Shown here: in pieces, positions 13,169 through 24,907 of the stretch
Numbering within the stretch: the first letter of the stretch is position 1
Layout: every line of letters starts with the position of its first letter
UHGV virus genome: UHGV-1374671
Direction: 5' to 3' (one strand)
DNA from: a virus
Length of the DNA stretch: 64,000 nt
Position numbers and translations under genes: made by a program
Notes under the pieces: model-generated
Database searches by the model: none
What the model saw: only the letters and a program-made list of their open reading frames with translations
Told to the model about the DNA's origin: nothing

Positions 13169-16100
13169 ATGGATGATATCAACGTGACGCCTGTTTTGGC
13201 GGACAGCTCCACAGTGGAGAACATTCAGGTTCGCCCGCAGCGTCCTCCCAAAACGGCAGCTGACTGGGTGCGCGACATGCGCATGTCTCCTGAAGTGAAC
13301 AAGACCACTGTCGGTGTGGAGACGGACCGGATAACTCCTGAGTTGCTGATGGCCACGTCGTCCAAGCTGCTTGGTATCTCCAGACGGGAGCAGGATCCGG
13401 ATCCCAAGGATTCCCTGCTCTTCCAGCGCTTCTACGGGCCGGCCGAATACTTTGCAGAACACATTCTGCGGGACGGCAACAAGGTGGCCCGTAACCTGCT
13501 GTGGAAAGCAACCAACAAGGGCAAGATTGACTTCGTACCGTCAGGAGCATTGGATCAGCACGTCAGCGATGTGTTCTACAGCAGCAAGCTGGCCCAGATG
13601 ATCGACGGGTCGTCTCCTTTGGAAACGGTGGACGCTTCCTTCAAGACCACCCGTATCGGCGAGGGCGGCGTCGCAGATGTGCAGTCGGCTCCTGATGAGA
13701 TGCGTACAGTGCAGCCTTCCTACTTCGGATACCTAGACTCCGTGCGCTGCTATTCGGACGATACCGAACTCATGACCAAAAATGGCTGGAAATTCGTTAC
13801 CGATATTACGGAAGACGATGAGCTTGCATGTTATATGGACGGCAGGTTGGAGTACCACAAACCAACCGCATTGAATGTATACGACTACAAGGGCAAGATG
13901 TACGGATACAAAGGTACGCATATCTCGTACCTGGTGACACCGAATCACCGGATGCATTCCAGATGTTATGGAGAACTCAGAGATGGGCGTCCTTGTGGTT
14001 ATAACATTCGTACAGCTGAGAGCATTCACGGTAAGAACAGGGTTGTAGATTCTGCCTGCCATTTGCCGTTACTGTGCAATGAGGATCAGAAATACTTTGA
14101 GCTCCCTGTGGTAGGTCCTAATCTGAAGAAAGAGCAGGTTCATGGCAATCCGCCAATGGGCGCCAGCTTGAAGAACGTGGACAAAGTGGACATCGTGAAG
14201 TTTGCCGAGTTCCTCGGATGGTACCTGGCTGAGGGTTCCTATGTGATCAATGAAACCAAAGGATACTACCGCGTTGATATTGCACAGTCCCCGGAAGTCA
14301 GTGCGGAAAACTACGAGCATATCAGACAGCTGATAGAATCTCTTCCCTTCAACGCAACCAATCCAGGTGCCGAGGAAAAAGCAAAAAGGGGCGGGCATGC
14401 CTTGTCCATCGCCAGAAAACAGCTGACCATATACGTCAGTCAGTTTGGAAAGTGCGAAGACAAGTACATACCTGAGTGGATTTTCTCAGCTCCGTTACAG
14501 GCCCGCAAAGCGTTTTGTTGGGCCCTTCTGCAAGGAGATGGACGGGAACAGAGACATCTCTGCACAAAGTCAAAGCGACTGGCTACTGACTTTGCCCGCC
14601 TGCTTTTTGAATTGGGTGAATCTGCCAAAGTATACCACGAAAAAGAAACCAGATATGAAAACCATCCTGGTATCTGGAATGTTTACTGGCACACCCGCAA
14701 AGAACGTCTTTTGGCTGGAAAAACACATAAGCACAAGGAAGGTGAATATTTCACTGAAGACTATACCGGCAAAGTGTACTGCCCGACCATACCTGGCGGT
14801 CTGGTGTACTGCCGCAGAGGCGAAAAGAGCGTTGGTTTCTGGTGCGGTAATAGTCCGGAGAGGTTACGCGTCGGATTGGATATGTATATGACCAAGAATG
14901 TGGTCAAGGGATCCGATGGAAAGCTGTACCAGAGATTCATCAACGCGCGTACCGGCAAGGAGGAGCTGGTTGACTCCGTAACAGCTTCCAGATCCATTGT
15001 GGCAGCGCCTGAGATGATGGACGCCGATACCAAGTCCATCTTCGCTCTTGGTGGTCGTACTGGCGTACGTATCGTACCCAAGGATAAGGTTGATTATTAT
15101 TTACCCAGAGCCGACGATGCGTACAGCATGTCGTCCAATATGGTGCCCATGTTCAATGGTGTGAAGGAAATGCGCCTGCTGATGGGATGCCTGCATCCGG
15201 GTACTCCGTTGATCACCATATCGGCGAAGAACGAGATCAACATCAAGCCGGCGAAATCCATTGGCAAGAATGCTTATGGAGTGCCTGGCTGCGATGCCAA
15301 AGGCAAGTCGCTGGGGTATCTGATCCGTAACAGCATTGCCAAGTTTCCCCAGAAGCGCAAGTGGTTCAAGAAGGTCGTGCTGATGTCGGGGCGGTCCCTG
15401 ATCACCAGCTACGATCACAGATGGCCAGTGCTGCGGGACGACAAGCTGGAGCTGGTGAACGCATCCGATCTTCAGCCCGGGGACAAGGTGCTCAGATCCA
15501 CGTTCAAGGATCTGCCCAATCGACGCACCTTTTTGCGCGGCGTACTGGTGAACAAGGATGTTGCCACGCTGCTGGGCTGCATCGTAAGGTCGGTCACCAA
15601 ACCTGACCCGGACAAGCTCCGGGTGGTGTACCAGCCTTCTCAGAAGAAGTTCATCGAGGCAGCCATCGAACGGCTCAAACTGGAGAACTCCCGCTTCTAC
15701 GCCAATGCCGGCGAGAAGTGCCTTGCCATTCATGACAGCAACTTCATCCAGTGGGTGGAGAAGGAGATCTGTCTGGAGCCGGAAGAGCGCAAGGTCCCCA
15801 CTGTGATTCTCAGTGCGTGCCTGGACATTGCGTCTCACTTCATCGACGCTTACACGGCCGACACCACCAAGGTCGGCATCGACAGCAACGAGGACATGTG
15901 GATCCTGGATATCCCCAGCATGATCTGCCGTGACGGTCTTGCGTTGCTGCTTGCCAGAATGCAGACGGATACCCTGTACCGGGATGCTGTGCGGGCAGAC
16001 GGAGTCAATCTGGCGTTGAAGCTGGTGGAACAGACCCCCACCTTCGGGGATTCCATTGTGGACGAGGTGAAAATTATACTCGAAGTAGAAAAGGTCCCGC

Positions 16101-19100
16101 TCATGATTGACATCGATATCGATGACAACATGTATGCGACCGCCAATGGAATCATCACACACAACTCCAAGTACCCGTTGCAGGCCATCTCCCTGCTGGA
16201 GCGGGAAGCTCCTTTGGTGAGAGGGCTGGATGAGGCGTCCGGCAGGGACATCCCGTCGTTGGCAGGCAAGTATCTCGGCGCCAGATTCGCCAACCAGGGC
16301 GGCACCGTCACCGCTGTGCGCAAGGACCGCATCGACGTCGTCTACGACGACGGCACCAAGGGCAGCGTTTCCCTGTACCAGAATTTCCCGATGAACGCCA
16401 AGGGGTACATCACCAACACGCCTGTGGTGAAAGCGGGACAGTCCTTCAAGAAGGGAGATGTATTAGCGGCGTCGAACTATACAGACGACAAAGGCGTGGC
16501 GGCCATCGGCAAGAATCTGAGATCCGGCTGGCTGTCCTGGAAGGGCGGCACCTATGAAGACGCTGTTGTAATCTCCGAATCAGCCGCCAAGAAGTTGACC
16601 AGCCGTACCATGTACAAATCGGCAGTCGACCTCGACAAGACAGTCAGTTTGGGAAAGAAGAACTACGTCTCCTGGAAGCCGTCCGAGTACACCAAGGACC
16701 AGCTGTCGGCGCTGGATGACAACGGAATCATTAAGCCGGGTTCCGTGCTTCGCAAAGGAGACCCGATGATTCTGGCGGTGCAGACATCCGAACCCTCTCC
16801 CGGGACGCTTGGCAAGCGCGTGCTGACGGATATCTCCGAGACCTGGGAACACGACCATCCGGGTGTGGTCACTGACGTGGTCAAGACCAGGAAGGGTGTG
16901 AAGGTGTTTGCCATTGTGGAAGCACCTGCGGAAGTGGGGGACAAGGTAAGCGGGAACTTCGGCAACAAGGGAGTAGTCTCGCAGCTTGGTAGAGAGTCCC
17001 AGGAAGAACAGGACGACGAGAACCAGGACTTCCAGATCCAGAAGATCGTACCGGACGCCATGATGCCCATTGGAGAGGACGGCAAGCCTCTGGATCTGCT
17101 GTTCAGTCCTCTTGGGCTTATCTCCCGTACGAACGCTTCCCAGATCCACGAGGCTCTTCTGGGCAAGATCGCCCGTAAGACTGGAAAACCGTTCGTCATG
17201 CCGGCCTTCTACAAGGGCGACCTTACGGAGTTCGTGGAGAACCAGCTGAAACAGAACAAGGTCAGCGACACGGAAGACCTGACGGATCCTTATACCGGCA
17301 GGAAGATCCCCAAAGTGCTGACCGGTGTGTCGTACATCTACAAGCTCAAGCACCAGGCCGAGTCCAAGCTGTCCGCACGCGGTACTGCCGAGTACACTGC
17401 CGAGGGCACGCCGGGTGGTTCTGGACTCACTGGGAGCAAAAGGTACGGAACTTTGGAGCAGTCCGCGATGGTCGGCCACGGTGCGTTTGACAACCTGCTT
17501 GATGCGAAACTCCTGCGTGGCCAGTCGAACTCGGATTTCTGGCGCAGCATCCGTACTGGAGAGATCCCGACGATTCCTGGAGAGCCCCTGGTGCACAAGA
17601 AGTTCTTCGCCCACCTTACAGGCTCCGGTGTGAACGTGCGCAAAACCCCGAAGGGCATCAGCGTGTTCTCGTTGTCCAACGACGATGTGAAAGAACTTGC
17701 CGGCCCCCGTGAGCTGAAATCCAAGGACACCTACGAAGCCAAGACATTCCGTCCCATCGATGGAGGACTCTTTGGTCAGGACCTGTTCGGCCCCAATGGA
17801 GACCGCTGGGCATACATCCAGCTGGACGAACCTCTGCCGAACCCTGTAATGGAGGAGCCTCTGGCGCGTCTTCTCAGAATGTCCACCAAGGACTTCATGG
17901 CAGTGGCCGCCGGCAAGGCTGAAGTGAATGGAATGAAATCCTCCGCCGACATCAAGGAACGCCTGTCCAGGATCAACTTGAAGGCCGAGGAACAGCAGGC
18001 CAAGCAGGAGTTCAAGGACGCCCCGATGTCTAAGAAGGACGCGGCGCTGAAGCGTTATCGGGACATCGCCCGCATGGCTGCGAATGAAGTGTCCCCTGAC
18101 CAGTACATGCTGGATAGGATTCCGGTGCTGCCTCCTGTCTTCCGTCCTGTCAGTACGCACAACGGACTGACCATGGTGGCCGACAGCAACTACCTGTATG
18201 CGCAGATGCTGGACGCCAGAGACGACGCCCGGGAAGCCCGCAACCTGCCCAAGGAATACCAGCAGCAGGCCAGGGAAAACCTGTACCGAAGCTGGAAGGA
18301 GCTGACCGGCATGTACGAGCCCGAGAACGTGAAGCTGAAGAACAAGCACGTGCGGGGGCTTCTGAAGTGGGCGCTTGGTGACAGTCCAAAATGGTCCGCG
18401 TTTCAGAGAAAGGTATTGGGCTCCACGGTGGACACGGTAGGCCGTGGTGTTATCACTCCGGATCCGCGCCTGAAGCTGAACCAGCTCGGCGTTCCTCTGC
18501 CGATGGCGTTGGGCATCTATGAGCCGTTCGTTGCTCGATCCATGGTCAAGCAGGGGTACTCTCCTGTGGAAGCCATGAAGATGATCAAGGTCCAGGACAA
18601 GCGCGTGATACCAGTGCTGCTTAACGTGATGAAGAACAGCCCTGTGCAGCTGAATCGGGCACCTTCGCTCCACAAGCTGAACATCATGGGATTCGAGCCT
18701 GTGCTCACTGCCGGGCACGCTGTCCGGGTAAACCCGTCCATTGTGGTGCCCTTTGCGGCGGACTTCGACGGCAACTGCTGCGATTTTGATAGTGTAATTT
18801 TCCTAAAATTATCAAAATCTGCGCTTGAAAAAACTGCTTTTATGTGCTATGTTGATCATAGTAACAAACCCGAACAAAACAAGGAGGTTTCTATGATCAC
18901 GGAAGACACAAGAGTCGTGGTGTTCAACCCGGATGAGACTGACCCGGATACTGTGTACTGCTCTATGAAGATCGGGGAGTTCCCGCGTAAGGGGGTGCCG
19001 GTGAAAGACCGGAACGGTGCTTTGGTGTACCCGGTTCCAGAAGGGGTAAGCGTACTGTCCTGCGACCCAGTTACAGGTGCTCCGAAGTTCTGCCCTGTGT

Positions 19101-20542
19101 CGGCTGTAACAGTGGAGGAGAACTGCCATACGGTAGAGTTGACTCTCGGCAGCAGAAAGATCATCGTGTCGGATAACGAATCCCTGGCCGCGTTCGACAG
19201 CAAGGCAGGTACGTTGATCAAAGTGTCCCCGGCAGAGATCGGAGATCGGATGATTCCTGTTCTGAAAAAGCAGCAGCTGCCATATGGCCCGTTCGGCACC
19301 AGGGACCTCGGCTGGATGTTCGGTGCGTTCATCTCCGATGGCTGGGTCACGCACAATATGGTGGGATACGCCAAAGTGGAAGCCAACAAGCGTGCTGAGT
19401 TCGTCAGGATCATGCGTGCGTATCACGAGAACTTTACTTGCAACGAATACACTGATCGTCCGCAGGCTGGAAAGAACAAGTTGGGCGCCTCCGTTAAGTT
19501 GCACCTGTGCAGCAAATCCCTGGCAGACTGGATGCGCAACTGGCAGCTCATAAACGAGGACTGTCCTGCGGCAGAGCGTGCTGCGCTGCGGAAGCAGATA
19601 AACAGCAAGATGATTCAGTACGGCTCCGAGGACTTCCTGTGGGGGCTGTTCTCCGGTCTCCTGGACGGTGACGGGTCCATCAGCAAAAACACGACGATGG
19701 AGAAGCCGCGCTTTACAGCCAGATTCAGCACCTCCAGCAAACAGCTGGCGGACGACATCTGCGCACTGTGTTATCGACTGGGTCTGCGTTACTCCATGAC
19801 CGTGGTACCTCCCAGAGGATTCTCCAATACGGCATACATCATCATCCCGTCCACTATTGACTTGCATGCCAAGCTGGACAAGCTCACCTGTATTGGTGAG
19901 CGGGAGATTCAGCTTATCTCGGAATGGAAGCAGCAGCCGTCGTACAAAGACACCAAAGACATGATCCCGCTGTCTGTTAAAGAAGCGGAAGTGCTGATTA
20001 AGCTGGCGAACGCCAGGAAAGACGTAGGAGTGTCCTCCGGGATCTACAAGACTAGAAAGAAGTCCTGTATCTACGGTGGTCGTGTTGGGCTGATGCGTTA
20101 CTGCGAGGAAATCAAGGAGATGTTCCCTGAGTTATACGCCCGTATTAAAAACGAGGACACCATTTGGCAGACTGTCACTTCCGTGGAGGACGCCGGCAAT
20201 CGCCAGGTGTTCGACTTGATGGTTGAGGGTACGAAAGTGTTTGCCATCAACAACGGCGTGATTATCTGGGACACCGCCAACGTGCACGTACCGGTATCCG
20301 ACAACGCCAGACGGGAGACCTATGAGAAGATGTTCCCGGAACGCAATCTGATCTCCATGCGTGAGCGCAAGGTGCTGTACAAGCCCGAAAAGGAGTACAT
20401 GCAGGGGATCTACGTGGCGACCCGCATGAAGAAGGGCAAGGATGTCCGACCGAAGATCTTCGGATCTGTGGAAGAAGCGCGTCAAGCGTTACGCAAGGGC
20501 ATTATTGATATTGATGATCCTATTGAAATACGCAAGCAATAA
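13169..20542 (+). CDS. RNA polymerase beta (C-terminal half) fused to beta-prime N-terminal half; precursor carrying two inteins
   Basis: GDKVSGNFGNKGVVSQ...PLDLLFSPLG matches beta GDKMAGRHGNKGVIS...NPLGVPSRMN. NRAPSLHKLNIMGFEPVL...AADFDG...NVHVP matches beta-prime NRAPTLHRLGIQAFEPVL...NADFDGDQMAVHVP. Ends after an IYVATRM segment that aligns with E. coli LYYMTR. Confidence 0.8.
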   Translation: MDDINVTPVLADSSTVENIQVRPQRPPKTAADWVRDMRMSPEVNKTTVGVETDRITPELLMATSSKLLGISRREQDPDPKDSLLFQRFYGPAEYFAEHILRDGNKVARNLLWKATNKGKIDFVPSGALDQHVSDVFYSSKLAQMIDGSSPLETVDASFKTTRIGEGGVADVQSAPDEMRTVQPSYFGYLDSVRCYSDDTELMTKNGWKFVTDITEDDELACYMDGRLEYHKPTALNVYDYKGKMYGYKGTHISYLVTPNHRMHSRCYGELRDGRPCGYNIRTAESIHGKNRVVDSACHLPLLCNEDQKYFELPVVGPNLKKEQVHGNPPMGASLKNVDKVDIVKFAEFLGWYLAEGSYVINETKGYYRVDIAQSPEVSAENYEHIRQLIESLPFNATNPGAEEKAKRGGHALSIARKQLTIYVSQFGKCEDKYIPEWIFSAPLQARKAFCWALLQGDGREQRHLCTKSKRLATDFARLLFELGESAKVYHEKETRYENHPGIWNVYWHTRKERLLAGKTHKHKEGEYFTEDYTGKVYCPTIPGGLVYCRRGEKSVGFWCGNSPERLRVGLDMYMTKNVVKGSDGKLYQRFINARTGKEELVDSVTASRSIVAAPEMMDADTKSIFALGGRTGVRIVPKDKVDYYLPRADDAYSMSSNMVPMFNGVKEMRLLMGCLHPGTPLITISAKNEINIKPAKSIGKNAYGVPGCDAKGKSLGYLIRNSIAKFPQKRKWFKKVVLMSGRSLITSYDHRWPVLRDDKLELVNASDLQPGDKVLRSTFKDLPNRRTFLRGVLVNKDVATLLGCIVRSVTKPDPDKLRVVYQPSQKKFIEAAIERLKLENSRFYANAGEKCLAIHDSNFIQWVEKEICLEPEERKVPTVILSACLDIASHFIDAYTADTTKVGIDSNEDMWILDIPSMICRDGLALLLARMQTDTLYRDAVRADGVNLALKLVEQTPTFGDSIVDEVKIILEVEKVPLMIDIDIDDNMYATANGIITHNSKYPLQAISLLEREAPLVRGLDEASGRDIPSLAGKYLGARFANQGGTVTAVRKDRIDVVYDDGTKGSVSLYQNFPMNAKGYITNTPVVKAGQSFKKGDVLAASNYTDDKGVAAIGKNLRSGWLSWKGGTYEDAVVISESAAKKLTSRTMYKSAVDLDKTVSLGKKNYVSWKPSEYTKDQLSALDDNGIIKPGSVLRKGDPMILAVQTSEPSPGTLGKRVLTDISETWEHDHPGVVTDVVKTRKGVKVFAIVEAPAEVGDKVSGNFGNKGVVSQLGRESQEEQDDENQDFQIQKIVPDAMMPIGEDGKPLDLLFSPLGLISRTNASQIHEALLGKIARKTGKPFVMPAFYKGDLTEFVENQLKQNKVSDTEDLTDPYTGRKIPKVLTGVSYIYKLKHQAESKLSARGTAEYTAEGTPGGSGLTGSKRYGTLEQSAMVGHGAFDNLLDAKLLRGQSNSDFWRSIRTGEIPTIPGEPLVHKKFFAHLTGSGVNVRKTPKGISVFSLSNDDVKELAGPRELKSKDTYEAKTFRPIDGGLFGQDLFGPNGDRWAYIQLDEPLPNPVMEEPLARLLRMSTKDFMAVAAGKAEVNGMKSSADIKERLSRINLKAEEQQAKQEFKDAPMSKKDAALKRYRDIARMAANEVSPDQYMLDRIPVLPPVFRPVSTHNGLTMVADSNYLYAQMLDARDDAREARNLPKEYQQQARENLYRSWKELTGMYEPENVKLKNKHVRGLLKWALGDSPKWSAFQRKVLGSTVDTVGRGVITPDPRLKLNQLGVPLPMALGIYEPFVARSMVKQGYSPVEAMKMIKVQDKRVIPVLLNVMKNSPVQLNRAPSLHKLNIMGFEPVLTAGHAVRVNPSIVVPFAADFDGNCCDFDSVIFLKLSKSALEKTAFMCYVDHSNKPEQNKEVSMITEDTRVVVFNPDETDPDTVYCSMKIGEFPRKGVPVKDRNGALVYPVPEGVSVLSCDPVTGAPKFCPVSAVTVEENCHTVELTLGSRKIIVSDNESLAAFDSKAGTLIKVSPAEIGDRMIPVLKKQQLPYGPFGTRDLGWMFGAFISDGWVTHNMVGYAKVEANKRAEFVRIMRAYHENFTCNEYTDRPQAGKNKLGASVKLHLCSKSLADWMRNWQLINEDCPAAERAALRKQINSKMIQYGSEDFLWGLFSGLLDGDGSISKNTTMEKPRFTARFSTSSKQLADDICALCYRLGLRYSMTVVPPRGFSNTAYIIIPSTIDLHAKLDKLTCIGEREIQLISEWKQQPSYKDTKDMIPLSVKEAEVLIKLANARKDVGVSSGIYKTRKKSCIYGGRVGLMRYCEEIKEMFPELYARIKNEDTIWQTVTSVEDAGNRQVFDLMVEGTKVFAINNGVIIWDTANVHVPVSDNARRETYEKMFPERNLISMRERKVLYKPEKEYMQGIYVATRMKKGKDVRPKIFGSVEEARQALRKGIIDIDDPIEIRKQ
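13748..16165 (+). mobile_element. intein 1 (806 aa) with LAGLIDADG homing endonuclease, inserted in the beta subunit
   Basis: Starts CYSDDTELM (block A) with TPNH (block B). LAGLIDADG blocks LGWYLAEGS and WALLQGDGRE. Ends NGIITHN before +1 Ser. Confidence 0.8.
16073..16092 (+). promoter_or_regulatory. dyad motif copy 1 (AATTATACTCGAAGTAGAAAA), followed by palindrome CATCGATATCGATG
   Basis: Sequence match to the motif family; sits in frame inside intein 1 (KIILEVEK). Confidence 0.45.
18784..18817 (+). repeat. AT-rich interrupted palindrome (ttttgata-gtg-taatttt-cct-aaaatta-tcaaaa)
   Basis: 8-bp and 7-bp paired arms; local GC about 30% versus about 58% genome-wide. Confidence 0.6.
18825..18853 (+). 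promoter_or_regulatory. sigma70-like promoter TTGAAA-N17-TATGTT embedded in frame in the intein 2 coding sequence
   Basis: Exact -35 TTGAAA (18825-18830), 17-nt spacer, -10 TATGTT (18848-18853). Followed by SD AAGGAGG (18881-18887) and in-frame ATG 18893. Confidence 0.5.
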
Positions 20543-20762: not shown

Positions 20763-21746
20763 ATGAGTGAGAAATACAGACATCTCTACGGACTGGGTAA
20801 AGCGGCTGTGGCTGTACTTACTCCGGAAGCAGAGCAAGCGGCTGTTCAGCCTCCGATGGACCCTGCCATGGCTGGCGGCGCTCCTCCGATGGATCCGATG
20901 GCGGCCGGAGGAATGCCTCCGCAGGGCGGCGCTGGAGCTCCTCCGATGGGTGGCGCTCCGATGCCGCCGCCGGCAGGCGGACAGATCCCGCCGGAAATCC
21001 TCCAGGACCAGATGTTCATCCAGTTTCTGCAGGAGGCGCTGGGGGTGTCCCTTGATCCGGCGTCGGGCATGTTCATGGGCCCGAATGGCGAACAGATCCC
21101 GCCCCAGCTTATCATTGAGGCCTACCAGGAGTTCCAGACGATGCAGGCCCAGGGCGGCATGCCGCCTGCAGGAGCTGGGGCTCCGCCTGCGGCAGGCATG
21201 GATCCGGCTATGGCAGCAGGTGGTGCTCCGATGCCGGCAGGAGCCCCGCCGATGGATCCCATGGCTGCGGGAATGCCTCCGGAAGCGGCTGGTGGAGTTC
21301 CTCCGGAAATGGGAGGAACCCCTGAAGAAGTGCCTCCGGAAATGGGCGCTGCACCTGAAGCAGGTGCTCCTGCGCCGGCTGCTGGACCGGAAGCGATGAT
21401 GCAGGAACTGCTGTCTGGAGTAGAGGCCGTGCTGCAGTCCTTCTCCGGAAAGCTGGACAAGCAGCTCAGTGCCATCCAGGACAAGATCGAGGCTCTGAAG
21501 ATGGATGTCGAATCACTGCGGGACACCACGGACCAGCGCACCAAGATGGAAGAGGACGAGGCTGCCCGTATCCGGGAAGAGCTGGAAGCAGAGCTTGTGC
21601 CCACCGCCGTTGCCCAGAAGGAGGCCAGCATTTCCATTCCGGCTCCGCAGCCGATCAAGATGCCGACCGTTGAGAACAAGCCGAGCACCAGGAAGCGTAC
21701 CGGCACTCCGAACCTGTTCTCCGTGATCCAGGGAGGAAAACGATGA
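20763..21746 (+). CDS. Pro/Ala/Gly/Met-rich repeat protein with C-terminal coiled coil
   Basis: Two copies of the module [PAGM-rich]-(Q)IPP(E/Q)(I)L...QEF; RBS aaggag. Confidence 0.65.
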   Translation: MSEKYRHLYGLGKAAVAVLTPEAEQAAVQPPMDPAMAGGAPPMDPMAAGGMPPQGGAGAPPMGGAPMPPPAGGQIPPEILQDQMFIQFLQEALGVSLDPASGMFMGPNGEQIPPQLIIEAYQEFQTMQAQGGMPPAGAGAPPAAGMDPAMAAGGAPMPAGAPPMDPMAAGMPPEAAGGVPPEMGGTPEEVPPEMGAAPEAGAPAPAAGPEAMMQELLSGVEAVLQSFSGKLDKQLSAIQDKIEALKMDVESLRDTTDQRTKMEEDEAARIREELEAELVPTAVAQKEASISIPAPQPIKMPTVENKPSTRKRTGTPNLFSVIQGGKR

Positions 21747-22600: not shown

Positions 22601-24907
22601 GTGACCATGTTGACGACACTGGGCAGAGAACTGATTCGGGCAAAGCTCCCCGAGAAGTACAAGGGGTACGCGGATCAGGTTCTGGACAAGAAAACACTGA
22701 CCAATCTGATGACCGAGATCGCCAGAGAGGATCCGGAAGGGTACATCGACGTTCTGCAGGATCTCAACAACATTGGACAGGAAGTCGTGTCCACATACGG
22801 ACGGGACACCTCGCTCTCGTATGCAGACCTGAAAGTCGACAATGAGATCAAAGCCCTGAACAAGCGCCTGCGGCAGGTCATCAAGGGAGTCCTCAATGAC
22901 GATTCCCTTACCAGCGAGCAGAAGGAAGAGAAGATCAAGGAACTGGGATACAAGTACACGCAGAAGGTGCAGGACGCGGTATTCCAGGACAACGACAAGC
23001 GAGGAACGTCGCTGGCCTCCCAGATCAACTCAGGCTCTCGTGGAAATAAAACCCAGTTGATGCAGCTCCAGTTCGGCAACATGCTGATGAAAGATGCACT
23101 CAACCGGGACATTCCTTATCTGATGATAGACCCGTTCGTCCATGGTGCGTCACCGATGTCGTACTGGGTGTCCGCGTCCAGTGGGCGCAAGGGGTTCTTC
23201 GATGTGCAGGCCGCCACCGGACAGGCCGGATATCTGGGCAAGCAGGTGACAGCCGCCACACACAGAACCACCATTGAGAAAGAGGACTGCGGCACCACCG
23301 ACACCGGAGTGCCGTTTCCTGCCAACAGCACGAAGAACGTGGGCGCGGTTCTGCTGCGCCCCTTCCACAAATACCCGGCAGGCACGGTTGTCACTGAGAA
23401 GATGGTTGCCGAGGCCGATGACGACGAGGAGATGATTCTGCGCAGTCCAACCACCTGCAAGTGCAAGGACGGCATCTGCGCCAAGTGCAATGGGCTGGGA
23501 GAGAATGGGAAGTTTCCGGCAGTGGGCGAGTATGTGCCGCTGAATGCTGCGCGTTCTTTTGTTGAGCCGGTTACGCAAGGAGGGATCTCGTGTCTGCATC
23601 CTGGAACACAGGTACGTATGGCAGACTGGTCTATCAAAGCACTGCGTGATATCAGGGTAGGCGATCGCGTTATGGGCGTTCACACCGATGGTTCTTATGA
23701 ACCCGCCCTCGTCACCCGGACGTTCGATAATGGCATTGTTCCGATGTACTTGACAAAGTTCCGTAAGGGCACTGATAAGATTGCCGTGCTGATGTCCACC
23801 ACATGTCACAAAATGCTCTTATCTGTCGACGGGGATGCTCCTGCCATTCTTCCTGTAGGTACAGATGGCCAGCTCAGCGCGTGTCAGACTATCGGACCTG
23901 CAGGGTATACTGATAAGCAGATTAAGATGTCACACTTCAAACGCATCTCTCAGGAATATATCGGAGACATGCAATCGCTGGATATTGAGATCGACAACGA
24001 CTCCCATCTGTTTCTGTTGGCCAATGGCCTGGTGGTTTCCAATTCCAAACATGGCGCGGGTATTGGAGGCAAGCGATGGGTCGATCCCGAGGGGCCTGAC
24101 CAGCCGCACGGGTTCCGTGCCCTTGAGCGTCTGTTCATGGCTCCCAGCAACTTCCCGGGCGGAGCCGTACTTGCCCCGCAGGACGGCACGGTAAGCAACA
24201 TTCAGAAGGCCTCCCAGGGCGGCCATTACATCACGGTGGGCAACAAGACGCTGTACTGCTCTCCAGATCGCACTATGAAAGTCAAAGTCGGGGACAAGGT
24301 GTCCGCCGGCGACGTACTTACCAATGGTGTGCCCAATCCTGCCGAGGTGATGGATCTCAAAGGACTGGGAGAGGGCCGGCATTACTTCGTCAACAAATTG
24401 AACGAAACCTTGAAGGCACAGGGCTGGGCAACAGACCGCAGAAATATCGAGGCGTTTACACGCAGCATGATTAGTAAGGTCAAAATCACCGACCCTGACG
24501 GATACAAGTCGTATCTGCCTGGTGATATTGCCGATTACAACGAGATCATGGCTGACTGGGAGCCCAGGGAAGGATCCGTCACAGTGAAAGCGGATCAGGC
24601 GCTGAACAAGTACCTGGAGAAACCGACCCTGTACTTCAGCGTCGGCACCAGGATCACCCCGTCAGTTGTGCAGCAGTTGAAGAAATACAAGTTTGATACT
24701 GTGACGGTGTCGGATAAGGAGCCTCCTTTCAAAGCTCAGTTCCTGCGTCCTGCTGTTGTGCTGCAGAACGACAAGAACTGGTTGCCCAGGCTGGCGGGAG
24801 AGCGGCTGCAGCCAGCACTGTTTGATGCAGCGCAGAAGGGCATCACCGACGAGTACGACTCGCCGAGTTACGTTGACAAAATCGTGGCGGCGCCATTTAA
24901 ACCATAA
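22601..24907 (+). CDS. RNA polymerase beta-prime C-terminal half; precursor carrying a mini-intein
   Basis: N-terminus continues the beta-prime alignment (GRELIRAKLPEKY...YADQVL compared with E. coli GRAILWMIVPKGLPY...FADQIM). AARSFVEPVTQGGIS|intein|SKHGAGIGG compared with [23 protein letters not shown]. Confidence 0.8.
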   Translation: MTMLTTLGRELIRAKLPEKYKGYADQVLDKKTLTNLMTEIAREDPEGYIDVLQDLNNIGQEVVSTYGRDTSLSYADLKVDNEIKALNKRLRQVIKGVLNDDSLTSEQKEEKIKELGYKYTQKVQDAVFQDNDKRGTSLASQINSGSRGNKTQLMQLQFGNMLMKDALNRDIPYLMIDPFVHGASPMSYWVSASSGRKGFFDVQAATGQAGYLGKQVTAATHRTTIEKEDCGTTDTGVPFPANSTKNVGAVLLRPFHKYPAGTVVTEKMVAEADDDEEMILRSPTTCKCKDGICAKCNGLGENGKFPAVGEYVPLNAARSFVEPVTQGGISCLHPGTQVRMADWSIKALRDIRVGDRVMGVHTDGSYEPALVTRTFDNGIVPMYLTKFRKGTDKIAVLMSTTCHKMLLSVDGDAPAILPVGTDGQLSACQTIGPAGYTDKQIKMSHFKRISQEYIGDMQSLDIEIDNDSHLFLLANGLVVSNSKHGAGIGGKRWVDPEGPDQPHGFRALERLFMAPSNFPGGAVLAPQDGTVSNIQKASQGGHYITVGNKTLYCSPDRTMKVKVGDKVSAGDVLTNGVPNPAEVMDLKGLGEGRHYFVNKLNETLKAQGWATDRRNIEAFTRSMISKVKITDPDGYKSYLPGDIADYNEIMADWEPREGSVTVKADQALNKYLEKPTLYFSVGTRITPSVVQQLKKYKFDTVTVSDKEPPFKAQFLRPAVVLQNDKNWLPRLAGERLQPALFDAAQKGITDEYDSPSYVDKIVAAPFKP
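23591..24043 (+). mobile_element. intein 3 (151-aa mini-intein) in the beta-prime trigger-loop region
   Basis: CLHPGTQVRMADWSIKALRDIRVGDRVMG (block A), TTCH (block B), ends NGLVVSN before +1 Ser. Confidence 0.8.

What the first reader, a model, noticed from the sequence alone, without database searches (positions are those of the whole stretch)
18761..20290. Intein splitting the universally conserved NADFDGD Mg-binding motif, with non-canonical junctions
The sequence reads AADFDG-N-CCDFDSVIF ... NGVIIW-D-TANVHVP. Block A (C-x-x-x-D-S-x-I) and block G (NGhhh..) are recognisable, but the C-terminal pair is W-D rather than H-N. There are two possible readings of the splice junction. If the intein runs Cys..Asp, the spliced motif is DFDGN-TANVH and the third catalytic Asp becomes Asn. 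If it runs Asn..Trp, the motif DFDGD-TANVH is preserved. Either the splicing chemistry is atypical (C-terminal Asp inteins are known but rare) or the catalytic triad is altered.
Basis: partly seen in the sequence, partly recalled or inferred. Interest (0 to 1): 0.7.

Follow-up and report, generated by a model that had tools for sequence, protein, structure and literature searches.

The report
Odd intein in phage RNA polymerase
A mobile self-splicing protein insert (intein) sits in the magnesium-binding DFDGD motif of a phage RNA polymerase; it has unusual splice-site residues that would leave Asn in place of the third catalytic Asp, and it carries its own hidden promoter and start codon.

Summary
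Nt 18776-20272 encode a 499-aa LAGLIDADG homing-endonuclease intein, reading AADFDGN|CCDFDS...IIWD|TANVHVP. A 94%-identical phage lacks it and reads DFDGD|T.

The odd junction marks a family:
- 102 junctions read DGN|C.
- 135 of 137 members end in Asp.
- Position +1 is Thr or Ser.
- The block B His is replaced, usually by Glu (S-x-N-E).
- No intein-free allele with DFDGN turned up. It was absent from IMG/VR. Only two rpoC genes, both from MAGs, had it among 185,579 species genomes.

Canonical class-1 splicing (Cys1, Thr+1, Asp cyclisation) is the most likely route.

New here: residues 14-47 of the intein are an AT-rich, in-frame, stop-free gene-start module. It contains:
- a conserved hairpin
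- a sigma-70-type promoter (near-consensus in relatives)
- a hairpin that sequesters the start codon
- AAGGAGG followed by ATG at 18893

In TAG-recoded relatives the host gene and its other inteins are full of in-frame TAG. The ORF from this ATG has none (0 of about 2,000 codons). That indicates stand-alone translation of the endonuclease part. One relative is truly split at this site.

The parts
13169..20542 (+). Host gene: fused RNAP beta plus the N-terminal half of beta' (2457 aa, three inteins)
   Evidence: Pfam RNA_pol_Rpb2_6 at E 5e-43 and RNA_pol_Rpb1_2 at E 8e-19. ORF.
18761..18775 (+). N-extein end, D-F-D-G-N. Asn (AAC) stands where every intein-free relative has the third catalytic Asp.
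   Evidence: 102 family junctions read DGN|C.
18776..20272 (+). Intein, 499 aa, from Cys1 to Asp499
   Evidence: Exactly absent from L024.
18776..18802 (+). Block A, CCDFDSVIF (Cys1 nucleophile, first beta-strand)
   Evidence: Cys1 is invariant in A2. Strand 7-13 in the AF2 model.
18782..18819 (+). Hairpin 1: arms GATTTTGATA (18782-18791) and TATCAAAATC (18810-18819), with an 18-nt loop. It lies just upstream of the -35 element.
   Evidence: A mean of 9.1 of 10 pairs are kept in 14 loci, against 3-5 in slid registers, with compensatory synonymous changes.
18825..18853 (+). Sigma-70-type promoter: -35 TTGAAA (18825-18830), a 17-nt spacer, TG (18845-18846) and -10 TATGTT (18848-18853)
   Evidence: Relatives have TTGACA-17-TATAAT/TATATT/TATAGT at the same offset (49 nt after the Cys1 codon). 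It is one of only 4 such sites in the 64 kb.
18853..18899 (+). Hairpin 2: 18853-18861 pairs with 18891-18899 and covers the ATG. The 5' arm overlaps the -10/TSS region.
   Evidence: L003, L019 and L044 have the same architecture with different sequences (z -3.8 to -5.2).
18881..18887 (+). Shine-Dalgarno AAGGAGG, 5 nt before the ATG
   Evidence: An RBS plus in-frame ATG is present in every relative examined.
18893..20542 (+). Nested ORF (549 aa): intein residues 40-499 (endonuclease and most of the Hint domain) plus the 89-aa C-extein
   Evidence: Gene callers start P0001 and others here. The ORF is TAG-free in TAG-recoded relatives.
18842..18916 (+). Linker residues 23-47, predicted disordered. 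This is the only low-confidence stretch of the model.
   Evidence: pLDDT below 50 only for residues 23-47. The region has GC 0.29-0.33 against 0.55 for the window.
19169..19180 (+). Block B, Ser132-Asp-Asn-Glu135, in place of Thr-x-x-His
   Evidence: MAFFT alignment with canonical inteins. S132, N134, E135 and S136 are invariant. Family tally.
19307..19345 (+). LAGLIDADG motif 1 (LGWMFGAFISDGW)
   Evidence: Pfam LAGLIDADG_3. D188 is invariant.
19637..19678 (+). LAGLIDADG motif 2 (LWGLFSGLLDGDGS)
   Evidence: D297/D299 conserved.
20201..20272 (+). Blocks F and G: RQVFDLMVEG...VFAINNGVIIWD (Asp480 at F:4, Trp498-Asp499 in place of His-Asn)
   Evidence: Aligned to the Ssp DnaB intein. D480 and D499 are invariant.
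20273..20539 (+). C-extein, beginning with Thr+1 (TANVHVP...), 89 aa
   Evidence: Position +1 is Thr or Ser in about 134 of 137 family members.

Best explanation
Nt 18776-20272 are a mobile LAGLIDADG homing-endonuclease intein. It is inserted at the DFDG(D)|T position of the beta' catalytic loop of a phage multisubunit RNA polymerase.

It belongs to a large, phage-restricted intein family with a derived catalytic set:
- Cys1
- Ser-x-Asn-Glu in block B, so no block B His
- Asp at F:4
- Trp or Tyr followed by Asp at the C-terminus, so no His-Asn
- Thr or Ser at +1
- an obligatory Asn at extein position -1

The most likely mechanism is inferred, not shown. It is ordinary class-1 splicing: an N-S acyl shift at Asn(-1)-Cys1, transfer to Thr+1, cleavage by cyclisation of Asp499, then an O-N shift. 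The Asn(-1)/Glu(B:10) pair replaces the Asp(-1)/His(B:10) pair of the sister clade. This route yields ...DFDGN-TANVHVP.... Whether that Asn is used as it stands or is converted to Asp is unresolved.

The intein also carries a complete gene-start module, kept in frame and free of stop codons, in a disordered loop between its first and second strands. The module has a hairpin, a sigma-70-type promoter, a second hairpin that can sequester the start codon only on read-through mRNA, a strong RBS, and the ATG at 18893. Full-length translation therefore gives a cis-splicing precursor. Transcripts from the internal promoter give the endonuclease-containing part on its own, much like a free-standing phage homing-endonuclease gene.
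For: Intein identity:
- Pfam, AF2 and Foldseek agree, and blocks F/G align to Ssp DnaB.
- There is an exact presence/absence polymorphism with L024, and with P0073 for intein 1.
- Both LAGLIDADG acidic residues are conserved.

Splice boundaries:
- Cys1 is invariant.
- 102 junctions read DGN|C.
- The last residue is Asp in 135 of 137 members.
- Position +1 is Thr or Ser in about 134 of 137. Close intein-free relatives have Thr, Gln or Ala there.
- Endonuclease-less mini-inteins keep the same junctions (P0019, L008, L022).

Block B reads S-x-N-E.

Covariation:
- The sister clade P0197/P0201/P0207 has DFDGD|S-C, S-x-D-H and [YW]D|T.
- An unrelated intein at the same site (L023) has Asp at -1, Ser1 and His in block B, and also ends in Asp.

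Gene-start module:
- It is one of 4 low-GC spots in 64 kb. The other three are gene junctions.
- The promoter sits at a fixed offset and reaches 11-12 of 12 consensus matches in L003, L004, L009, L019 and L042.
- RBS and ATG are kept everywhere, although the peptide sequence is not.
- There are 0 in-frame stops against 17 and 40 in the other two frames. The joint shuffle probability is about 2e-11.
- The linker is the only low-pLDDT segment.
- In TAG-recoded relatives, TAG counts per codons for N-extein, linker and the ORF from the ATG are: L003 80/2088, 2/36, 0/452; L042 35/634, 2/37, 0/461; L010 28/1000, 0/37, 0/461; L023 46/1482, 1/55, 0/493.
- Other inteins in the same L003 gene carry 37 TAG in 870 codons.
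- The start-codon hairpin covaries between lineages.
- L016 is split exactly here, with an ATGA stop/start overlap.
Against: - No experiment: splicing, promoter activity and internal initiation are all inferred.
- The predicted product DFDGN conflicts with the universal conservation of the third Asp. No intein-free DFDGN allele was found in IMG/VR. Only two rpoC genes had it in 185,579 species genomes, and both are MAGs. Either the enzyme tolerates Asn or the simple mechanism is incomplete.
- The intein lacks both catalytic His residues and the terminal Asn, so its efficiency is uncertain.
- The window's own promoter is weaker (9 of 12 plus TG) than those of relatives. On its own it is no better than chance.
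- The start-codon hairpin is absent or weak in L004 and L016.
- TAG avoidance could in principle reflect something other than stand-alone translation.
- L016 is a single contig, and its frame change lies in an A-rich run.
Confidence: 0.6

Rival explanations
1. Splicing restores the catalytic Asp. Asn(-1) acts as a masked Asp that is converted during or straight after splicing. Possible routes are Glu135/Cys1-assisted deamidation of the Asn side chain, or transfer of the amide group between the spatially adjacent Asn(-1) and the activated (anhydride) Asp499. Either would make the mature enzyme DFDGD-T.
For: - The third Asp is universal. All of about 60 intein-free relatives have it, and DFDGN is essentially absent from 185,579 species genomes.
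- The precursor is an exact isomer of a canonical Asp(-1)...Asn(last) precursor.
- The family has persisted through deep divergence (38-95% identity) and through loss of the endonuclease, so the product must be functional.
- An invariant Ser-x-Asn-Glu-Ser cluster sits where block B contacts the -1/+1 junction.
Against: - No precedent in intein chemistry that I know of.
- Nothing in the sequence demands it.
- The sister clade and the second family show that Asp at -1 is compatible with inteins at this site, so masking would need a reason.
- Spontaneous Asn-Thr deamidation is slow and gives mostly isoAsp (general protein chemistry, from my own knowledge).
Confidence: 0.17
2. The insert cleaves but does not ligate. 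It acts as an autoprocessing domain. Asn(-1) cyclises onto the Cys1 thioester, and the succinimide opens to isoasparagine. That is an Asp side chain with an amidated C-terminus. Asp499 cyclisation then frees the 89-aa C-fragment. The beta' chain would be left nicked at the active site, with a true carboxylate at the third position.
For: - This route uses only known reactions: cyclisation of Asn thioesters, and opening of C-terminal aminosuccinimide to Asn or isoAsn.
- beta' is already fragmented in this phage. Its C-terminal half is a separate gene at 22601-24907.
- The C-fragment can be made separately from ATG 18893, and L016 is split.
Against: - Position +1 is Thr or Ser in about 134 of 137 members, although intein-free relatives often have Gln or Ala there. 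That points to a need for the +1 nucleophile, and so for real splicing.
- Succinimide opening gives mixtures.
- A nick inside the Mg loop of an RNAP has no precedent.
Confidence: 0.07
3. The insert is a degenerate intein that no longer splices. It is either retained as a domain or makes this RNAP copy non-functional.
For: It lacks the block B His, the penultimate His and the terminal Asn. For the insert alone, Pfam Intein_splicing falls below its gathering score.
Against: - Cys1, Asp F:4, Asp499 and Thr/Ser at +1 are conserved over more than 100 clusters at 50% identity.
- Mini-inteins derived from it keep the junctions.
- The flanking exteins are under obvious purifying selection.
- A 55-kDa domain inside the buried Mg loop is sterically implausible (inference).
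- The frame through the AT-rich linker is actively kept open.
Confidence: 0.05
4. The promoter, RBS and ATG are non-functional relics of an ancestral split or fractured gene, and are not an active expression module. Only the full-length precursor is made.
For: - The window's promoter is only 9 of 12 plus TG, and a single scan hit is no better than chance.
- Dassa et al. [quoted passage not shown]
- Some lineages (L005, L006, L014) have poor -35/-10 matches at the usual offset.
Against: - Near-consensus promoters, RBS and ATG are kept at the same place in many diverged lineages, although the encoded peptide is not conserved.
- TAG is excluded only downstream of the ATG, in four TAG-recoded lineages and in a second intein family. 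The linker, exteins and other inteins all carry TAG.
- The start-codon hairpin covaries.
Confidence: 0.12

Closest known systems
Class 1 inteins with a LAGLIDADG homing endonuclease (PI-SceI, PI-PfuI, Tli/Pho VMA inteins)
   Same: - Hint splicing fold with a nested two-motif LAGLIDADG domain (Foldseek E 1e-18 to 1e-11)
- Cys1, Asp at F:4 and a Thr+1 nucleophile
- Insertion in the most conserved site of an essential enzyme
- Presence/absence polymorphism typical of homing
   Different: - Block B is Ser-x-Asn-Glu instead of Thr-x-x-His.
- The C-terminus is Trp/Tyr-Asp instead of His-Asn.
- The extein -1 residue is changed from the host's catalytic Asp to Asn.
- A promoter, RBS and ATG are embedded in the intein.
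[quoted passage not shown]
   Same: A C-terminal Asp that can plausibly cyclise to cleave the C-terminal junction.
   Different: - Here Asp is fixed in a whole family (135 of 137).
- It is combined with loss of both catalytic His residues.
- It is combined with an Asn at -1 that mirrors it.
Tko CDC21-1 intein orthologues: the 'very small subset' of inteins lacking the block B His (PMC4031507, PMC6333167)
   Same: A natural intein family without His at B:10. PMC6333167 shows that the -1 extein residue can compensate functionally for loss of this His.
   Different: - The replacement is an invariant Glu, not a compensating Lys elsewhere.
- The co-varying -1 residue is Asn.
- The host and insertion site are different.
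Fractured genes and free-standing phage homing-endonuclease genes (Dassa et al. 2009, PMC2677866)
   Same: - Phage origin
- The endonuclease has its own control elements, including a hairpin at the start codon that overlaps a promoter element
- The arrangement fits the 'missing link' logic between contiguous and split inteins. Their step IIIa predicts that loss of the endonuclease gene's flanks recreates a contiguous gene.
   Different: - The gene here is not fractured. The control region is translated in frame as a disordered loop of a contiguous intein.
- The endonuclease is a normal internal intein domain, not a separate ORF.
- The control region sits after strand 1, far from the endonuclease insertion point.
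[quoted passage not shown] PolB16 OarG with a 15-aa IntN, PMC10189870; artificial S1-type Ssp DnaB, PMC6333167, PMC3443213)
   Same: The linker lies just after the first strand, which is the S1-type split position. Relative L016 is truly split there (46-aa IntN, ATGA overlap).
   Different: - The window's copy is contiguous, and its frame is under selection to stay open.
- The C-fragment retains a full homing-endonuclease domain. I know of no natural split intein where this is described.

Membership tests
Intein (Hint-domain protein-splicing element) | Hint fold with recognisable blocks A, B, F and G | tested here: met
   AF2 model with pLDDT 86. Foldseek hits to the TliVMA, PI-PfuI and PI-SceI inteins. 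Blocks F/G align to Ssp DnaB. Block B aligns with canonical inteins.
Intein (Hint-domain protein-splicing element) | In-frame insertion in a conserved host site, with uninterrupted alleles elsewhere | tested here: met
   L024/P0020 is the same phage without the insert and reads DFDGD|T. 17 further intein-free contigs in IMG/VR.
Intein (Hint-domain protein-splicing element) | Nucleophile (Cys/Ser) at residue 1 and Cys/Ser/Thr at +1 | tested here: met
   Cys1 is invariant. Position +1 is Thr or Ser in about 134 of 137 members.
Intein (Hint-domain protein-splicing element) | Block B Thr-x-x-His | tested here: not met
   The window has Ser132-Asp-Asn-Glu135. At B:10 the family shows Glu 72, Asp 5, His 3, Gln 2-3 and Ala 2.
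Intein (Hint-domain protein-splicing element) | C-terminal His-Asn | tested here: not met
   The window has Trp498-Asp499. In the family the pair is [YWF]-Asp in about 129 of 137 members, and the last residue is Asp in 135 of 137. Terminal Asp is a documented rare alternative (PMC4031507).
Intein (Hint-domain protein-splicing element) | Demonstrated excision with ligation of the exteins | not testable with these tools
   Needs expression and mass spectrometry.
LAGLIDADG homing endonuclease | Two LAGLIDADG motifs with conserved catalytic acidic residues | tested here: met
   Pfam LAGLIDADG_3 at E 7e-9 to 7e-12, above its cut-off. D188 and D297/D299 are conserved. Foldseek hits to I-OnuI and I-Tsp061I.
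LAGLIDADG homing endonuclease | Cleavage of the empty allele, and homing | not testable with these tools
   Only indirect evidence: presence/absence polymorphism at 94% nt identity.
Naturally split intein | The intein coding sequence is divided by a stop codon and a new start into two genes | tested here: not met
   The window frame is open from 18776 to 20272. The frame is kept open in 8 lineages. The feature is met only in relative L016.
Free-standing phage homing-endonuclease gene (own promoter, start-codon hairpin) | Own promoter, RBS and start codon | tested here: met
   These are sequence elements only, conserved at a fixed position. Their activity was not tested.
Free-standing phage homing-endonuclease gene (own promoter, start-codon hairpin) | Translated independently of the surrounding gene | tested here: inconclusive
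   The indirect evidence is strong. There are 0 TAG in 452, 461, 461 and 493 codons after the ATG in TAG-recoded relatives. Exteins and other inteins carry 3-5% TAG. The window's phage is not recoded, so the test cannot be made on the window itself.
Multisubunit RNAP beta' catalytic loop | Asp-x-Asp-Gly-Asp triad | tested here: not met
   The precursor reads DFDGN, and canonical splicing would keep Asn. The intein-free allele meets the feature.

The most novel reading that the evidence does not exclude
Protein splicing by this family does not simply join DFDGN to T. It regenerates the catalytic aspartate from Asn(-1). This could happen by moving the amide nitrogen to the neighbouring terminal Asp of the intein, or by intein-catalysed deamidation. 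That would be a new protein-splicing chemistry, in which an essential active-site residue is kept masked until the intein leaves.
Probability: 0.17. Interest if true: 0.92.

Novelty: new variant of a known kind. Interest (0 to 1): 0.75.

Why it matters
1. If the canonical mechanism holds, hundreds of phage lineages run a multisubunit RNA polymerase with Asn in place of the third metal-binding Asp. That substitution is essentially never seen in cellular or intein-free phage enzymes. If the mechanism does not hold, the intein performs chemistry not yet described. One mass-spectrometry experiment would settle this.

2. The family offers a natural His-less, Asn-less catalytic solution, with a co-varying extein residue: Asn(-1) with Glu at B:10, against Asp(-1) with His at B:10. 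This bears directly on how exteins take part in splicing, and on intein engineering.

3. The intein carries a complete endonuclease expression cassette that is translated in frame. One relative is truly split at the same point. This looks like the missing intermediate between contiguous inteins, fractured genes and split inteins. I did not find it described: a search of the held literature for inteins with internal promoters returned nothing relevant.

4. The ORF is written in the standard code inside TAG-recoded host genes. That gives a sequence-only way to detect genes that must be expressed before recoding switches on.

5. The S1-type split site with a natural 46-aa IntN (L016) may be useful for making semisynthetic proteins.

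Tried and rejected
- **DNA similarity to cultured phages.** There was no match at the DNA level. By protein the best hit is 32% identical, so no annotated relative helps.
- **AT-rich linker as a repeated mobile element.** There is no second copy in the window.
- **Many relatives are split genes.** I first thought this because their proteins start at the internal Met. I rejected it for most of them. L001, L002, L043 and L044 are contigs that simply begin inside the linker. L003, L019 and L042 are TAG-recoded, so gene callers stop at sense TAGs. The minus-strand genes called upstream in L042 are artefacts of this.
- **True split.** Only L016 is really split.
- **The Asn..Trp reading** (excision of N-C...W, joining Gly to Asp). 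It would need an Asp as the +1 nucleophile and cleavage N-terminal to Asp. It conflicts with the block G alignment, and the conserved Thr/Ser after the Asp argues against it. I kept it only as a remote possibility (about 3%).
- **Hairpin 1 as an intrinsic terminator.** There is no U-tract, and the terminator scan did not call it. Its role remains unexplained.
- **Recent horizontal arrival as the cause of TAG avoidance.** Rejected because the linker, which belongs to the same mobile element, does carry TAGs. Other inteins in the same gene do too.
- **Contiguous DFDGN....HVP in genomes.** The 16 hits were 14 unrelated proteins and two rpoC genes from MAGs.
Full report
**1. The observation**

ORF 13169-20542 (+, 2457 aa) is a fusion of RNAP beta with the N-terminal half of beta'. 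Pfam gives Rpb2_6 at E 5e-43 and Rpb1_2 at E 8e-19. It reads ...VVPFAADFDGN|CCDFDSVIF...VFAINNGVIIWD|TANVHVPVSD.... The insert is nt 18776-20272 (499 aa).

**2. It is a homing-endonuclease intein**

- The insert scores for LAGLIDADG_3 above the Pfam cut-off. It scores for Intein_splicing just below it.
- An AlphaFold model built from 16 relatives is confident (pLDDT 86, pTM 0.86).
- The model's best structural matches are endonuclease-bearing inteins: TliVMA 7qss at E 1e-18, PI-PfuI, PI-TkoII-type 2cw7 and PI-SceI.
- A family profile aligns blocks F and G to the Ssp DnaB mini-intein. VFDL falls on VFDL, and ...NNGVIIWD falls on ...ANDIIVHN.
- Contig L024 encodes P0020 and is 93.8% identical at the nucleotide level. 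It is the same phage without the insert. The alignment is ungapped once 18776-20272 is removed. It reads GGC GAT ACA (G-D-T), where the window has GGC AAC [intein] ACC.
- P0073 is another strain at 90-94% aa identity. It has this intein but lacks intein 1 exactly.
- Both LAGLIDADG acidic residues are conserved. Together these points describe an active homing element.

**3. The odd junction is a family trait**

A search of 1.84 billion cluster representatives found 137 members at E below 1e-30. Most sit in 1,900-3,100-aa fused RNAP proteins.

| Feature | Tally |
|---|---|
| N-junction | 102 read D-x-D-G-N\|C |
| Last residue | Asp in 135 of 137 (YD 76, WD 45, FD 8) |
| Position +1 | Thr or Ser in about 134 of 137 |

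Close intein-free relatives have Thr, Gln or Ala at +1. All of about 45 intein-free proteins, and 17 IMG/VR contigs, read DFDGD. A contiguous DFDGN....HVP was found in 0 IMG/VR contigs. Among 185,579 species genomes only two rpoC genes had it, and both are MAGs. Asn at the third triad position therefore occurs only together with this intein.

**4. The catalytic set**

I aligned this intein with the window's three other inteins, which are canonical, and with Npu DnaE, Ssp DnaB and Mtu RecA. Ser132-Asp-Asn-Glu135 falls on Thr-x-x-His. The model has the expected strand-turn-strand at that point.

Position B:10 in the family is Glu 72, Asp 5, His 3, Gln 2-3 and Ala 2. The block B His is described as the single most conserved intein residue, missing only in a very small subset (PMC4031507, PMC6333167). 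Terminal Asp is a known rare alternative to Asn (PMC4031507).

The three members that do have His at B:10 (P0197, P0201, P0207) form a sister clade. They read DFDGD|S-C..., with block B S-x-D-H, and they end [YW]D|T.

A second, unrelated intein family occupies the same site (L023, P0036, P0051, P0053). It has Asp at -1, Ser1 and His in block B, and it ends Gln-Asp.

So the combination (Asp -1, Ser1, His B:10) alternates with (Asn -1, Cys1, Glu B:10). I infer that Asn(-1) is a functional partner of the His-less active site. It may also avoid attack by an Asp(-1) carboxylate on the Cys1 thioester, a side reaction I know from general intein practice.

**5. How it most likely works, and what stays open**

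Class-1 splicing at Cys1 and Asp499|Thr is supported by:
- conservation of Cys1, Asp F:4 (D480), Asp499 and Thr/Ser at +1
- the survival of endonuclease-less mini-inteins with the same junctions (P0019, L008, L022)
- purifying selection on the exteins

That route gives DFDGN-T. Either this polymerase works with an Asn ligand, or the Asn becomes Asp by chemistry that has not been described. Possible routes are deamidation assisted by the Glu/Cys pair, or an amide swap with the neighbouring activated Asp499. A third option is cleavage only: Asn(-1) cyclisation followed by opening to isoasparagine would give an Asp side chain at a nicked chain end. Sequence analysis cannot decide between these. 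The mass of the junction peptide would.

**6. A gene start hidden inside the intein**

Nt 18771-18891 have GC 0.29-0.33, against 0.55 for the window. Only four such spots exist in 64 kb, and the other three are gene junctions with ribosome-binding sites. The stretch contains:
- hairpin 1 (18782-18791 pairing with 18810-18819)
- TTGAAA, a 17-nt spacer, then TGcTATGTT (18825-18853)
- AAGGAGG (18881-18887)
- ATG at 18893

*The signals are conserved.* Relatives have TTGACA-17-TATAGT (L003), TATATT (L004, L009, L019), TATGGT (L043) or a perfect TTGACA-17-TGcTATAAT (L042). All start 49 nt after the Cys1 codon, and all are followed by an RBS and an in-frame ATG. The encoded peptide is not conserved.

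*The frame is kept open.* In 8 lineages there are 0 in-frame stops, against 17 and 40 in the other frames. The joint shuffle probability is about 2e-11.

*The peptide is a loop.* Residues 23-47 are the only low-confidence part of the model. The DNA therefore encodes a tolerated loop and expression signals at once.

*A second hairpin covers the start codon.* It pairs 18853-18861 with 18891-18899, which includes the ATG. L003, L019 and L044 have the same architecture with different sequences (z -3.8 to -5.2). Its 5' arm overlaps the -10/TSS region. Only read-through mRNA could form it. This is the logic described for free-standing phage endonuclease genes (PMC2677866).

*The strongest evidence is TAG avoidance.* It comes from relatives that read TAG as a sense codon.

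| Locus | N-extein (TAG/codons) | Linker | ORF from the ATG |
|---|---|---|---|
| L003 | 80/2088 | 2/36 | 0/452 |
| L042 | 35/634 | 2/37 | 0/461 |
| L010 | 28/1000 | 0/37 | 0/461 |
| L023 (second family) | 46/1482 | 1/55 | 0/493 |

Three other inteins in the same L003 gene carry 37 TAG in 870 codons. The ORF that starts at the internal ATG is therefore written in the standard code. It must be translatable when TAG means stop, that is, on its own.

*One relative is split.* In L016 the frame changes at this point. The stop of the upstream gene overlaps the ATG (ATGA). This gives a natural split intein with a 46-aa N-fragment.

In the window, sigma-70-like sites are rare (4 in 64 kb). The RNAP genes lie in a tail/baseplate module. 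A host-type promoter there is consistent with endonuclease expression being uncoupled from a late host gene. That last point is an inference.

**7. Comparison with what is known**

This works like a class-1 LAGLIDADG intein, and I file it as an intein. It fails two textbook motif tests (block B His and terminal His-Asn), and it alters a catalytic residue of its host.

- It resembles Asp/Gln-ending inteins, and the Tko CDC21-1 group that lacks the block B His. It combines both traits with a co-varying extein residue.
- Its embedded control region and its split relative place it between contiguous inteins, fractured genes (PMC2677866) and atypically split inteins (PMC10189870).
- I found no description of an intein with an internal promoter and start codon in the held literature.

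**8. Limits**

- Everything about activity is inferred.
- The window's own promoter is weaker than those of its relatives.
- The TAG argument cannot be applied to the window's phage, because it is not recoded.
- L016 is a single contig.
- Family tallies count cluster representatives, not independent evolutionary events.

Noticed in passing
window 13748-14851, 15188-16165, 23591-24043: There are three more inteins in the RNAP genes. Intein 1 (368 aa, LAGLIDADG) reads CYSDDT..TPNH..FWCGN|S and sits in beta before SPE. Intein 2 (326 aa) reads CLHPGT..SYDH..ITHN|S. Intein 4 (151-aa mini) sits in beta'-C and reads ..TTCH..VVSN|S. All three have the canonical block B His and terminal Asn. Inteins make up 1193 of the 2457 aa of ORF 13169-20542.
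   Followed up: partly
window 13748-14851 versus P0073: P0073 is the same phage (90-94% aa identity). It lacks intein 1 exactly but keeps intein 3. L024 lacks intein 3. Intein content is therefore mosaic within one phage population.
   Followed up: yes
window 13169-20542 and 22601-24907: Beta and the N-terminal half of beta' are fused in one ORF that ends 89 aa after DFDGD. The C-terminal half of beta' (Rpb1_5) is a separate gene 2 kb downstream. Both lie inside a tail/baseplate module, which suggests a virion-associated polymerase. The closest cultured phage is only 32% identical.
   Followed up: partly
L023 4448-6145 (also P0036, P0051, P0053): A second, unrelated intein family occupies the same DFDGD|T site. 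It has Ser1, His in block B and Asp at -1, and it ends Gln-Asp. It carries the same kind of in-frame TTGACT-17-TATATT promoter, RBS and ATG. It has 0 TAG in 493 codons inside a TAG-recoded gene.
   Followed up: partly
P0197, P0201, P0207: This is a sister clade of the intein family. It reads DFDGD|S-C..., has block B S-x-D-H, and ends [YW]D|T. The third Asp and the block B His are kept together.
   Followed up: partly
L016 1738-1880: A relative is truly split in the linker. The N gene ends ...CTDFDST...HTERKAS with a TGA that overlaps the ATG of the C gene (MTEDRKIV...). This gives a 46-aa IntN and an IntC that still holds the endonuclease. It is a single contig, and the frame change lies in an A-rich run.
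   Followed up: partly
L003, L010, L019, L023, L042: Several relatives use TAG as a sense codon at 3-5% of RNAP codons. Standard gene callers therefore fragment the RNAP gene and even call spurious opposite-strand genes.
   Followed up: yes
window 18782-18819: A 10-12-bp hairpin is formed by the DFD and (I/L)SKS codons, just upstream of the -35 element. It is conserved in 14 loci, with compensatory synonymous changes. It has no U-tract, and its function is unknown.
   Followed up: partly
L001, L002, L043, L044 (contig starts): Four independent assemblies have a contig end within the first ~120 nt of the intein. L001 begins one base before the Cys1 codon. This is probably graph breakage at a hypervariable or polymorphic spot. 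I did not examine it further.
   Followed up: no
P0158: A related intein sits in a different, non-RNAP host protein, at ...TPDFDGE|CVIGDT... and ...IIVWD|TQLRLETCETC. Its block B reads T-K-N-Q. The same DFDG context appears in another gene.
   Followed up: no
L055 2085-2119, L059 230-264: Two bacterial MAG rpoC genes (Deinococcaceae and Pseudomonadota) read NADFDGNQMA[IV]HVP. These are likely assembly errors, but they were the only DFDGN rpoC genes among 185,579 species genomes.
   Followed up: no
window 20763-21746: This ORF encodes a Pro/Ala/Gly/Met-rich low-complexity protein with repeated PPMDPMAAGG-like units. Local GC reaches 0.75. It lies between the two RNAP genes and is conserved in L024.
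   Followed up: no
L003 1629-7892; L023: Relatives carry further intein sites in beta: GGEHG|C...CSN|SKRFG, GDKM|C...SGN|SG and GIISR|C...LGN|TNPSQ. That makes up to six or seven inteins per RNAP gene set.
   Followed up: no
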